DNA of 11,826 nucleotides from a virus (IMGVR_UViG_2778261065_000019), one strand, 5' to 3'; numbered from the stretch's first letter, positions 9,582 to 9,863 are shown. Numbers and translations are program-made. The notes: generated from the letters alone by a model not told the origin.

Positions 9582-9684
9582 CTCCACCGGAATTTTTTTC
9601 CGGTTACGCTTTGCCCACCAGCCGCAAATGTGGCATTGTTGGCTATGCTCATGCGTTGGGGATAACGTGTAGCTTGTGTCGAGG

Positions 9685-9712
9685 GGCCACCGTAGCGGGT
9701 GGCCTTTGTTTT
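9685..9712 (+). terminator. Intrinsic terminator on the plus strand
   Basis: Stem GGCCACC (9685-9691) / GGTGGCC (9698-9704), 6-nt loop, then TTTGTTTT (9705-9712). Could end the RHH gene transcript after a ~100-nt 3' UTR. Confidence 0.5.
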
Positions 9713-9766
9713 GCCTGTTATCCGGCAATTGTGGCGCTTCGTCACACGGTTGATATAATTCCACTG

Positions 9767-9836
9767 CACTGATCCATTTTTTTCGCAGCAGGTTAATTGT
9801 TCGCAAGGGCGCTCCGGCAACGGGGCGCTTTTTGTT
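9767..9836 (+). ncRNA. Candidate ~70-nt small RNA convergent with alpA
   Basis: Perfect extended -10 TGaTATAAT at 9751-9759, predicted start near 9767, terminator hairpin GCGCTCC (9809-9815) / GGGGCGC (9822-9828) with a G-U wobble, followed by TTTTT (9829-9833). No ORF in the interval. Purely a structural prediction. Confidence 0.3.
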
Positions 9837-9863
9837 ATGTTCATCGCGTTACGCCTCACACCA

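What the first reader, a model, noticed from the sequence alone, without database searches (positions are those of the whole stretch)
9582..9860. Gene-free interval with two plus-strand terminators and a perfect extended -10: candidate small RNA convergent with alpA
TGaTATAAT (9751-9759) followed about 70 nt later by a hairpin plus T5 (9809-9833), with no ORF, predicts a short plus-strand RNA whose 3' end lies just below the alpA stop. alpA itself has no terminator on its own strand, so its transcripts would run antisense through this region toward the early operon. Convergent transcription or an antisense RNA could gate alpA read-through.
Basis: inference. Interest (0 to 1): 0.45.

Follow-up and report, generated by a model that had tools for sequence, protein, structure and literature searches.

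The report
Two antisense small-RNA genes after alpA
The stretch between alpA and the next gene of this E. coli phage satellite probably carries two tiny RNA genes, read opposite to a long open reading frame that links alpA to the satellite's early genes, so they may act as an RNA brake on satellite induction.

Summary
The sequence features are real. T1 (9683-9713) and T2 (9805-9836) are the two best terminator-like sites in the window. TGATATAAT (9751-9759) is a conserved spot between variable flanks in 42 distinct relatives. A ~70-nt plus-strand RNA (about 9766-9836) is therefore likely.

Two corrections. First, the interval is not gene-free. It is the 5' part of a minus-strand frame (8588-9859, ATG 9844) that starts just after the alpA stop. 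This frame stays open across the interval in nearly all of 127 related loci, and unit lengths mostly differ by multiples of 3. It shows no amino-acid-level constraint, like eta of satellite phage P4. Second, T1 has its own promoter (TTGCCC 9611-9616, 17 nt, TGG-CATTGT to 9639). Distant relatives keep the hexamers and spacing but change most of the spacer, so there are two tandem small transcription units.

In 35 distinct junctions the order is fixed: alpA stop, ribosome-binding site, ATG, 6 nt, then the complement of the small RNA's terminator tail. I infer an antisense RNA that blocks translation of the alpA-coupled frame and so limits read-through.

No RNA or functional data exist. Nothing matches in Rfam, and I found no description in the searchable literature.

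The parts
9864..10070 (-). alpA (AlpA-family helix-turn-helix regulator), stop codon TAA at 9864-9866
   Evidence: Pfam Phage_AlpA E=4.5e-8; annotated as an HTH regulator in the identical RefSeq record
8588..9859 (-). Eta-like read-through frame: GAGG ribosome-binding site at 9854-9857 and ATG at 9842-9844, 19 nt after the alpA stop. It runs antisense through sRNA-2, sRNA-1, ylcI and the divergent promoters, then through isrK and C4, and ends as an Icd/Kil-like peptide
   Evidence: 0 stops in its frame against 25 and 15 in the other minus frames; shuffle P(open) 0.017 for the interval, 0.00085 for the promoter region, 0.033 for isrK+C4. Open in relatives (median 379 codons, 127 loci). Same frame over the M1 promoter in 146 of 146 contexts and unit lengths are multiples of 3 in 128 of 146. 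Pfam Phage_ASH at aa 278-370. No third-position bias
9751..9759 (+). Promoter P2: extended -10 TGATATAAT, no conserved -35
   Evidence: 1 of 9 columns variable among 42 distinct sequences, between variable flanks
9731..9745 (.). Inverted repeat GTGGCG-CTT-CGTCAC in the P2 spacer/-35 zone; role unknown
   Evidence: 78% of cells paired; an alternative palindrome TGGTC-ATTTC-GACCA occupies the same place in 7 sequences
9766..9836 (+). Candidate sRNA-2 (about 68-71 nt). The start at G9766 is inferred. It holds a U-rich tract, the near-invariant block GCAGCAGGUUAAUUGUUC, and then T2
   Evidence: Invariant G seven bases after the -10. The 18-nt block has 2 variable columns. Fold -23.9 kcal/mol, z -2.2. 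No ATG. No Rfam match
9805..9836 (+). Terminator T2: stem 9809-9816/9821-9828, T5 9829-9833
   Evidence: Top-ranked terminator-like site. 95% of cells paired, with compensatory and + strand-only wobble changes. -19.9 kcal/mol on + against -11.0 on -
9611..9639 (+). Promoter P1: -35 TTGCCC 9611-9616, 17-nt spacer, TG 9631-9632, -10 CATTGT 9634-9639
   Evidence: Relatives keep the -35, the exact 17-nt spacing, and A2/T6 of the -10 (TATGCT, TATGAT, TATCAT, TATCCT, TATTCT, TAATCT, CATAGT), while most of the spacer changes (it keeps a common ACCAGC-type start). In the window it matches only 7 of 12 positions plus TG
9646..9713 (+). Candidate sRNA-1 (about 65 nt here, 51-66 nt in relatives). The body comes in at least 6 versions, most of them G/U-rich. 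It can also be the 3' end of the ylcI mRNA
   Evidence: no Rfam match
9683..9713 (+). Terminator T1: stem GGCCACC/GGTGGCC followed by TTTGTTTT
   Evidence: 99.7% of cells paired; a CG->GC double change in 8 sequences; other stems (GGCGACC, GGCGGCC, GGCAGCT) in further relatives
9402..9581 (+). ylcI/ynfO-family gene; the pattern KSQxxxxRxPHE looks ribbon-helix-helix-like, so a repressor role is inferred
   Evidence: RefSeq annotation; protein-level conservation at 36-73% identity; no Pfam hit
8943..9019 (-). isrK-type leader (context only)
   Evidence: Rfam RF01394, 80 bits; promoter-like site 9055-9026
8834..8921 (-). C4/CI-type immunity RNA (context only)
   Evidence: Rfam RF01695, 75.3 bits

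Best explanation
The window is an E. coli phage satellite. It has PICI (phage-inducible chromosomal island) features and P4-like features. It sits at tRNA-Pro, next to yejM.

Transcripts from the alpA promoter are not terminated after alpA. A ribosome-binding site and an ATG lie 19 nt after the alpA stop. They open a long frame that runs through the interval, ylcI, the divergent promoters, isrK and C4. As shown for eta of P4, translating such a frame is what lets the transcript reach the early and replication genes without premature termination. This step is inferred here by analogy.

Two short plus-strand transcription units sit inside this frame and face alpA:
- sRNA-1: promoter P1 at 9611-9639 to terminator T1 at 9713.
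- sRNA-2: TGATATAAT at 9751-9759 to terminator T2 at 9836.

The unit nearest alpA ends so that its terminator tail is complementary to the frame's mRNA starting 6 nt after the ATG. I infer that these RNAs pair with the read-through mRNA, block initiation of the frame or trigger its cleavage, and so cause polarity. That would keep the island silent until helper-induced, self-activated alpA transcription outruns them.

Shown: the sequence anatomy, its conservation, the strand specificity, the open-frame constraint and the junction geometry. Inferred: that the RNAs are made, that the frame is translated, and the regulatory outcome.
For: Element identity and context.

sRNA-2 unit:
- The extended -10 is a conserved spot between variable flanks.
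- The G seven bases after the -10 is invariant.
- T2 is 95% paired, and its wobble pairs work only on the + strand.
- T2 folds at -19.9 kcal/mol on + against -11.0 on -.
- The unit occurs without M1 (L209, L210). Its 3' half is reused behind the M1 promoter in 16 loci, including Sakai Sp7.
- It is present at >=80% coverage in 276 of 5426 complete E. coli genomes.

sRNA-1 unit: the -35, the 17-nt spacing, TG and the -10 are kept while most of the spacer changes. T1 stems covary.

Read-through frame:
- 0 stops against 25 and 15 in the other minus frames, with low shuffle probabilities.
- Open in nearly all of 127 loci.
- Same frame in 146 of 146 contexts, with unit lengths mostly multiples of 3.
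- No third-codon-position bias in substitutions.
- P4 has the same vis-to-ORF-over-isrK/C4 layout. [quoted passage not shown]

Junction: 35 distinct junctions in 74 loci read stop, GGGG-type ribosome-binding site, ATG, 6 nt, then the A tract complementary to the terminator tail. They span different alpA C-termini and different terminator stems.

Against: - No transcript, 5'/3' end, Hfq or RNase III data were found for either RNA. The EHEC Hfq-CRAC supplement has no entry near the Sakai element, and that element lacks P2.
- P1 is a weak match in E. coli (7 of 12 positions plus TG).
- In CFT073-type loci, sRNA-2 lies about 250 nt inside the frame, not at its start. A block of initiation therefore cannot be the universal mode.
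- About half of the M1-bearing loci lack sRNA-2.
- Openness of the frame opposite ylcI itself is not improbable (P 0.23-0.83 under synonymous resampling).
- The fixed junction could partly reflect inheritance of one compact boundary.
- All sRNA-2 copies come from closely related E. coli-type elements, so conservation carries limited weight. No exact match to its 17-nt motif was found in any other enterobacterial species representative.
Confidence: 0.45

Rival explanations
1. The two small RNAs are made but act in trans, probably with Hfq, on host or helper-phage mRNAs or on other sRNAs. Their antisense position relative to the alpA read-through frame would then be incidental.
For: They are short (51-71 nt), with a U-rich 3' tail and an A/U-rich stretch just before the terminator. 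sRNA-1 combines a conserved promoter and terminator with variable, mostly G/U-rich 5' bodies. That resembles the 51-60-nt prophage anti-sRNAs AgvB and AsxR, which have conserved 3' parts and variable 5' parts (PMC4104026). The block GCAGCAGGUUAAUUGUUC is nearly invariant although a cis-antisense RNA needs no seed. IsrK of related elements acts in trans (PMC4825925, listed).
Against: No partner better than shuffled controls was found in the window: best non-self duplex -32.9 kcal/mol against a null range of -31 to -40. The fixed geometry relative to the ORF start is not explained by a trans role. Genome-wide target prediction could not be run.
Confidence: 0.22
2. T1 and T2 are simply tandem terminators. 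They stop transcription from the ylcI side before it runs antisense into alpA and int. The promoter-like sequences are weak or incidental, and any RNA made has no function.
For: Loci without sRNA-2 also carry a second plus-strand terminator soon after T1 (for example GGCTGATA-TTCACG-TATCAGCC-TTTTTT in L007). The ylcI mRNA has no other terminator before T1. In the variant with a fused unit, T2 directly follows a plus-strand gene.
Against: The extended -10 is far more conserved than its flanks. P1 keeps promoter geometry while most of the spacer changes, and in L263-type loci it lies 200-300 nt beyond the ylcI stop. sRNA-2 occurs as a self-contained unit without M1.
Confidence: 0.15
3. Regulation works through transcriptional interference alone. 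RNA polymerases firing from P1 and P2 collide with or block polymerases coming from the alpA promoter, and the RNA products do not matter.
For: The promoters are convergent, and a perfect extended -10 lies about 100 nt from the alpA stop. P22 Psar/Pant is a precedent for coupled convergent promoters (my knowledge).
Against: Each unit is terminated after about 70 nt by a strong, conserved, strand-specific terminator. That limits the collision zone and suggests a defined RNA product. The conserved block inside sRNA-2 is not needed for interference.
Confidence: 0.1
4. The interval is ordinary protein-coding sequence of a Bro/Eta-type protein, and the plus-strand signals are by-products of that coding sequence.
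For: In CFT073 the frame begins as a Bro-N-like domain. Its homology to an intact Bro-N protein (42% identity, E=9e-10) runs into the T2-encoding codons. There is a weak Pfam Bro-N hit (E=0.069) and a Phage_ASH hit further on.
Against: Substitutions show no codon periodicity: 18, 24 and 15 variable columns at codon positions 1, 2 and 3. Unrelated sequence versions replace each other in frame. The translated sequence has an atypical, Cys/Trp-rich composition. Wobble pairs and U tracts are conserved on the opposite strand.
Confidence: 0.05

Closest known systems
P4 immunity and read-through system (vis - eta/kil - CI RNA - timm)
   Same: An AlpA-family gene is followed directly by a long frame that spans the isrK-type leader and the C4/CI RNA and ends as a Kil/Icd-like peptide. 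In P4, translation of that frame decides whether the transcript is terminated (Forti et al. 1999, as summarised in PMC10111431).
   Different: P4 has no plus-strand gene, promoter or terminator between vis and PLE. Here about 800 nt of plus-strand units (ylcI, sRNA-1, sRNA-2) are embedded in the frame. The proposed RNA brake is cis-antisense rather than a processed sense-strand RNA, and most relatives lack C4 altogether (11 of 128).
P22 sar RNA (immI region)
   Same: A 68-69-nt antisense RNA is made from a promoter inside an operon on the opposite strand. It ends at its own terminator and overlaps the translation start of the next gene, an antirepressor (my knowledge). The window has similar size and the same convergent layout and position relative to a start codon.
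   Different: No sequence relationship. The target here is a leader-like frame coupled to alpA, not ant. There are two tandem units. No experimental data exist.
Lambda OOP RNA
   Same: A short (77 nt) constitutive antisense RNA is convergent with a regulatory gene and causes RNase III-dependent cleavage of its mRNA (my knowledge).
   Different: OOP overlaps the 3' end of the cII coding sequence. Here the RNAs stop 27-31 nt short of the alpA stop codon and overlap the next frame instead.
Prophage anti-sRNAs AgvB/AsxR of EHEC (PMC4104026)
   Same: Unusually short RNAs (51-60 nt) from mobile elements, with conserved 3' parts and variable 5' parts, arranged as convergent small genes.
   Different: Different location (the moron site after PR' of lambdoid phages) and no sequence similarity. 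Those RNAs act in trans on core sRNAs.
IsrK / C4 RNAs of the same element
   Same: Small regulatory RNAs in the satellite's dynamic 'Bro zone' (PMC10111431).
   Different: They lie on the other strand, 600-900 nt away. The interval matches neither Rfam model.

Membership tests
Any Rfam 15 family (including isrD, isrK, C4, isrJ) | Covariance-model score at or above the family's gathering threshold | tested here: not met
   The best hits in 9350-10150 cover terminators only: isrD 17.5 bits (threshold 37) and SpF41 18.5 bits (threshold 52), with E >= 1. Twelve loci chosen for divergent M1 versions gave no hit at the M1 unit.
Intrinsic (Rho-independent) terminator | GC-rich hairpin directly followed by a U tract on the transcribed strand | tested here: met
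   T1 and T2 rank first and second in the window. They fold at -18.5 and -19.9 kcal/mol. Cells paired: 99.7% and 95%, with compensatory and + strand-only wobble changes.
Intrinsic (Rho-independent) terminator | Termination of transcription in vivo or in vitro | not testable with these tools
   Needs Term-seq or in vitro transcription.
Sigma-70 extended -10 promoter | TGnTATAAT-type element, with a purine start 6-8 nt downstream | tested here: met
   P2 is a perfect TGATATAAT with an invariant G at the seventh base after it. P1 is TGG-CATTGT plus TTGCCC at a 17-nt spacing; relatives have closer-to-consensus hexamers.
Sigma-70 extended -10 promoter | Measured promoter activity | not testable with these tools
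   Needs reporter fusions or dRNA-seq.
Cis-encoded antisense sRNA (sar / OOP type) | Own promoter and terminator on the strand opposite a transcribed target | tested here: met
   Both units lie inside the minus-strand frame that follows alpA without a terminator.
Cis-encoded antisense sRNA (sar / OOP type) | Overlap with a functionally critical part of the target, such as its translation start or a cleavage site | tested here: inconclusive
   The complement of the terminator tail begins 6 nt after the ATG in 35 distinct junctions, including the window. In CFT073-type loci sRNA-2 lies about 250 nt inside the frame. Translation of the frame itself is inferred.
Cis-encoded antisense sRNA (sar / OOP type) | The RNA is detected and changes target expression | not testable with these tools
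   No data were found in the literature searched or in the EHEC Hfq-CRAC supplement.
P4 eta-type read-through frame | Frame starts at the end of the AlpA/Vis gene, spans the immunity RNA region, and shares its end with a Kil/Icd-like peptide | tested here: met
   Window. P4 ORF 8168-8812 overlaps the end of vis and covers the isrK and C4 hits.
P4 eta-type read-through frame | Selection for an open frame rather than for the protein sequence | tested here: met
   0 stops against 25 and 15. Same frame in 146 of 146 contexts and unit lengths multiples of 3 in 128 of 146. No third-position bias. The part opposite ylcI is uninformative.
P4 eta-type read-through frame | Nonsense mutations cause premature termination, and suppression relieves it | not testable with these tools
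   Genetic experiment.
Target or partner of the element's C4/CI RNA | Complementarity to C4 that co-occurs and co-varies with C4 | tested here: not met
   GCCCACCA and GUUGGC can pair with C4, but only 11 of 128 loci with the M1 core carry a C4. The C4 junction varies while the core stays fixed.
Hfq-dependent trans-acting sRNA | Terminator with a U tail, an upstream A/U-rich site, and a conserved seed with targets elsewhere | tested here: inconclusive
   The U tail and UUAAUUGUU just before T2 are present, and there is a conserved 18-nt block. No target better than shuffles was found in the window. Genome-wide search and Hfq binding are not testable here.
Small protein gene on the + strand (ORF 9611-9772) | Ribosome-binding site, conserved stop, and third-position substitution bias | tested here: not met
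   TTG start without a ribosome-binding site. The stop is absent in the CFT073 version (61 aa). No periodicity. It is the codon-aligned antisense of the long frame.

The most novel reading that the evidence does not exclude
These convergent small RNAs could be the missing repressor of Gram-negative PICIs. They would form an RNA-based immunity layer that blocks translation of the leader frame coupled to alpA, so that Rho ends the induction transcript. The interchangeable 5' bodies of sRNA-1 would define specificity types. Promoters, terminators, a repressor gene and a translated frame would be overlaid on both strands of one stretch of DNA.
Probability: 0.2. Interest if true: 0.75.

Novelty: new member of a known kind. 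Interest (0 to 1): 0.55.

Why it matters
How Gram-negative PICIs are kept silent is open. [quoted passage not shown] A conserved pair of antisense RNA genes sits exactly where the AlpA-driven transcript must pass. Their fixed geometry relative to the start of an alpA-coupled frame gives a concrete, testable candidate for that brake. It also extends the P4 principle, in which translation of a leader frame decides termination, to a much larger group of satellites.

The region also shows dense two-strand overlap. Gene callers handle it inconsistently: the same DNA is annotated as nothing, as 'hypothetical protein', or as 'Icd-like protein' in different records.

Tried and rejected
1. Pairing of the conserved M1 core with the element's C4 RNA. 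An 8-nt and a 6-nt complementarity exist, but only 11 of 128 M1 loci carry C4 and there is no covariation. Rejected.
2. M1 as a plain 3'UTR element. Replaced by the promoter reading once distant relatives were seen.
3. A Cys-rich plus-strand small protein (9611-9772). No ribosome-binding site, no conserved stop, no codon periodicity. Rejected.
4. Rfam. Nothing in the interval at E <= 1 apart from terminator look-alikes. The isrD similarity is limited to the T1 stem and was not seen in other M1 versions.
5. Scan of one genome per species with CAGNAGGTTAATTGTTC. It gave only chance-level hits in unrelated phyla.
6. One IMG/VR scan was wasted on a pattern with a spacing error.
7. Trans targets of sRNA-2 within the window. 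None better than shuffled controls.
8. Experimental evidence. Papers on EcCICFT073, EcCIMP1 and helper-embedded PICIs mention no RNA here. The EHEC Hfq-CRAC supplement has nothing near ECs157x-160x. Sakai carries only the fused version without P2. Forti et al. 1999 could not be read.
9. Synonymous resampling of ylcI. Openness of the antisense frame there is not improbable, so that segment is not counted as evidence.
10. The phage collection has no DNA match to 9300-10100.

Full report
**What the window is**

- A 100%-identical copy of window 9300-10100 lies in E. coli MFDS1022581, in an element next to tRNA-Pro and yejM. The window differs from that record by an indel further along the element.
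- On the minus strand that element carries an integrase, a small hypothetical gene, an AlpA-family gene (window 9864-10070; Pfam Phage_AlpA), an Icd-like gene, DUF4222, a primase, SSB and capsid genes.
- On the plus strand it carries one small gene, ylcI/ynfO (window 9402-9581).
- Rfam finds an isrK-type leader (8943-9019, minus) and a C4/CI-type RNA (8834-8921, minus). These are the RNA pair of P4 immunity; P4 itself gives the same two hits, at 8615-8692 and 8420-8507.
- The same layout occurs in the prototype Gram-negative PICI, EcCICFT073, and in many other E. coli islands. The layout is int, alpA, optional Bro/Ant genes, the interval, ylcI on the other strand, divergent promoters, icd, then replication genes.
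- There is no DNA match in the phage collection.

**Checking the observation**

- TGATATAAT is at 9751-9759.
- T2 is GCGCTCCG-GCAA-CGGGGCGC at 9809-9828, followed by T5 at 9829-9833.
- T1 is GGCCACC-GTAGCG-GGTGGCC at 9685-9704, followed by TTTGTTTT.
- T1 and T2 are the two best terminator-like sites in the whole window.
- Both terminators are strand-specific. They fold at -18.5 and -19.9 kcal/mol on the plus strand. On the minus strand they fold at -14.3 and -11.0, the latter no better than shuffles, and no U tract follows.
- No minus-strand terminator-like site lies between the alpA stop and position 9005. The statement that alpA lacks a terminator therefore holds.
- One TGNTATAAT in 11.8 kb is not significant on its own: 0.40 expected, and 63 of 200 shuffles have at least one.

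**Comparative evidence for the predicted RNA (sRNA-2)**

- The interval matches 749 of 5426 complete E. coli genomes (253 at >=80% coverage). The sRNA-2 part matches 276 at >=80% coverage.
- I collected about 250 related loci from IMG/VR and RefSeq and aligned 42 distinct versions (A1).
- The nine bases of the extended -10 have one variable column (minor-allele fraction 0.003). All five columns just upstream vary, and three of the six downstream vary (0.10-0.155).
- The G seven bases after the -10 is invariant, which places the start near 9766.
- T2 is paired in 95% of cells. One pair is U.G in 41 of 42 sequences, and the other one-sided changes also give wobbles. These would be A.C or C.A mismatches on the minus strand. 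One C-G to A-U double change occurs. A second stem version (GCGGTTCC/GGGGCCGC) forms its own hairpin.
- An 18-nt block before T2, GCAGCAGGTTAATTGTTC, has only two variable columns.
- The unit can occur without its neighbour (L209, L210). Its 3' half with T2 is reused behind a different promoter in 16 loci, including prophage Sp7 of O157:H7 Sakai.
- There is no ATG in the RNA and no Rfam match.
- I put the chance that a ~70-nt plus-strand RNA is made at roughly three in four.

**First correction: the interval is not gene-free**

- A minus-strand ORF of 423 codons (8588-9859) covers the interval. I first took it for an artefact, because it runs antisense through ylcI, a promoter region and two known RNAs.
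- Its frame has 0 internal stops. The other two minus frames have 25 and 15, and the plus frames have 13-19.
- The shuffle probability of an open frame is 0.017 for the interval, 0.00085 for the promoter region and 0.033 for isrK+C4.
- In 127 related loci an open frame spans the same place (median 379 codons), whichever sequence versions are present. The few short cases include single-base indels such as L078.
- In 146 distinct contexts the frame crosses the M1 promoter in the same register. M1 unit lengths are 81, 87, 90, 96, 102 or 117 nt in 128 of them, all multiples of 3.
- Substitutions show no third-position excess: 18, 24 and 15 variable columns at codon positions 1, 2 and 3 within sRNA-2. 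Unrelated sequence versions also replace each other in frame.
- So the frame is kept open, but its amino-acid sequence is not conserved in this part.
- Openness opposite ylcI itself is not improbable (P 0.23-0.83), and I do not count it.
- Pfam sees only Phage_ASH over the isrK/C4 part.
- In CFT073 the N-terminus is a decayed Bro-N domain. Its homology to an intact Bro-N protein runs into the codons that encode T2.
- This is the arrangement of P4 eta. P4 ORF 8168-8812 overlaps the end of vis and covers the isrK and C4 hits.
- According to PMC10111431, citing Forti et al. [quoted passage not shown] I could not read the original paper. From memory, it showed that nonsense mutations in eta cause premature Rho-dependent termination.

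**Second correction: T1 belongs to a second small transcription unit (sRNA-1)**

- The 40 nt before T1 are almost invariant in E. coli. I first treated them as a 3'UTR element.
- Relatives of ylcI from more distant elements show a promoter signature. TTGACC or TTGCCC is followed by exactly 17 nt and then TATGCT, TATGAT, TATCAT, TATCCT, TATTCT, TAATCT, CATAGT or CATTGT. TG usually sits one base before the hexamer, and most of the spacer differs.
- In the window this is TTGCCC (9611-9616), 17 nt, TGG-CATTGT (to 9639). It is a weak match.
- In some loci the unit lies 200-300 nt beyond the ylcI stop, which argues for its own promoter.
- The transcribed part up to T1 is 51-66 nt and comes in at least six versions, most of them G/U-rich.
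- T1 stems covary: GGCCACC, GGCGACC, GGCGGCC, GGCAGCT.
- There is no Rfam match.

**Junction geometry**

- In 35 distinct junctions from 74 loci, the minus strand reads in a fixed order: the alpA stop codon; a GGGG- or GAGG-type ribosome-binding site, often directly after the stop; ATG; six bases; then the A tract and stem that are the complement of the terminator of whichever small unit lies nearest alpA.
- These junctions span several alpA C-termini and several terminator stems.
- The window follows this rule with T2: ...GCGTAA TGGTGTGAGG CGTAACGCG ATG AACATA ACAAAAAGCGCC.
- The 3' tail of the small RNA is therefore complementary to the frame's mRNA from about +8, inside the region a starting ribosome covers.
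- In CFT073-type loci a Bro-N remnant separates the start from sRNA-2 by about 250 nt. A block of initiation therefore cannot be the only mode. Cleavage of the duplex, or ribosome-free mRNA downstream of a cut, would be the alternative.

**Most likely mechanism**

*Shown:*
- two plus-strand units with conserved promoter and terminator signals;
- their position inside a frame that is selected to stay open;
- the coupling signals at the alpA stop.

*From the literature:*
- alpA is switched on by helper phages.
- A global repressor has not been identified (PMC6092414).

*Inferred:*
- The AlpA-driven transcript must be translated through the frame to escape premature termination, as in P4.
- The small RNAs pair with the start of that frame and stop its translation or cause cleavage.
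- Weak or accidental alpA transcription then dies in the interval, while strong self-activated transcription gets through.
- The YlcI protein, whose sequence pattern looks ribbon-helix-helix-like, probably controls the divergent promoters through the GTGTAAGACAC palindromes. This is a guess.

**Rivals**

Each is laid out with its refutation test in its own section.
- Trans-acting Hfq-type sRNAs. The size and the conserved/variable layout recall the EHEC anti-sRNAs (PMC4104026). No trans target was found in the window.
- Plain tandem terminators.
- Pure transcriptional interference.
- Ordinary coding sequence.

**Comparison with known systems and novelty**

- The closest functional parallels are P22 sar and lambda OOP (short convergent antisense RNAs) and the P4 eta/kil/CI logic.
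- P4 has no plus-strand units at this place.
- The interval matches no Rfam family. I found no description of these RNAs in papers on EcCICFT073, EcCIMP1, helper-embedded PICIs or PICI reviews.
- sRNA-2 appears confined to E. coli-type elements: a scan of one genome per species with its 17-nt motif gave only chance hits.
- sRNA-1 reaches more distant elements.
- I class the finding as new members of a known kind. Interest is moderate, because it offers a testable candidate for the missing brake of Gram-negative PICIs. Everything beyond sequence anatomy remains inference.

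Noticed in passing
window 9611-9713 (+): T1 is preceded by its own conserved promoter (TTGCCC, 17 nt, TGG-CATTGT). Distant relatives keep the hexamers and the exact spacing but change most of the spacer. This predicts a second small RNA of 51-66 nt whose body comes in at least six versions, most of them G/U-rich. It is more widespread than the RNA in the finding: the core region is matched in 749 of 5426 E. coli genomes.
   Followed up: yes
window 9586-9609 (+): The hairpin ACCGGAA-TTTTT-TTCCGGT followed by TACGC, right after the ylcI stop, resembles hairpin 2 plus the junction of the element's own C4 RNA (CCGG...CCGGUUACGCC). It is seen only in loci of the 'GTTACGCTTTGCCC' type.
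   Followed up: no
window 8834-9019 (-): The isrK-type leader contains UUAACGAAG, the complement of the C4 loop CUUCGUUAA. It therefore looks like the seqA-type target and terminated leader of P4 immunity. A promoter-like site lies at 9055-9026.
   Followed up: partly
window 8588-9400 (-): The long frame holds two Icd-like repeats (YIWRFIALSTAQPRVITIEATSEQEARQ and FIWRFIIFGASESQIIHVTAWTEREARS). It looks as if an isrK-C4-icd cassette was inserted into a CFT073-type icd gene. Most relatives (117 of 128) have no C4.
   Followed up: partly
window 9300-9382: GTGTAAGACAC palindromes lie between divergent promoter-like sites (minus 9348-9311, plus 9344-9371). They are probably operators for the small YlcI protein, whose sequence pattern looks ribbon-helix-helix-like.
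   Followed up: no
window 10140-10240: Two direct repeats, GTACCCAC and GGTACCCAC, flank a TTTTAAAA palindrome upstream of alpA and are candidate AlpA sites. A minus-strand terminator-like site at 10236-10211 separates int and the hypothetical gene from alpA.
   Followed up: no
L263, L264, L268, L323 at 2302-2374 (+): Sub-threshold SymR-like Rfam matches (32-38 bits, gathering score 61) lie 130-200 nt upstream of ylcI in more distant satellites.
   Followed up: no
L248 (O157:H7 Sakai, NC_002695.2 about 1596730-1597480): Prophage 'Sp7, untypable' at roxA is a capsid-encoding PICI. It carries a fused unit: the M1 promoter with -10 TATCAT, ending at a T2-type terminator. Its long antisense frame is annotated there as ECs_1576, and alpA is not annotated.
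   Followed up: partly
L007 about 1600-1660 and similar loci: Loci that lack sRNA-2 carry another plus-strand terminator-like hairpin (GGCTGATA-TTCACG-TATCAGCC-TTTTTT) about 40 nt after T1, inside the 3' end of a Bro-N gene.
   Followed up: no
RefSeq records: The same DNA is annotated inconsistently across records: as no gene, as 'hypothetical protein', as 'ash family protein', or as a 305-aa 'Icd-like protein'.
   Followed up: partly
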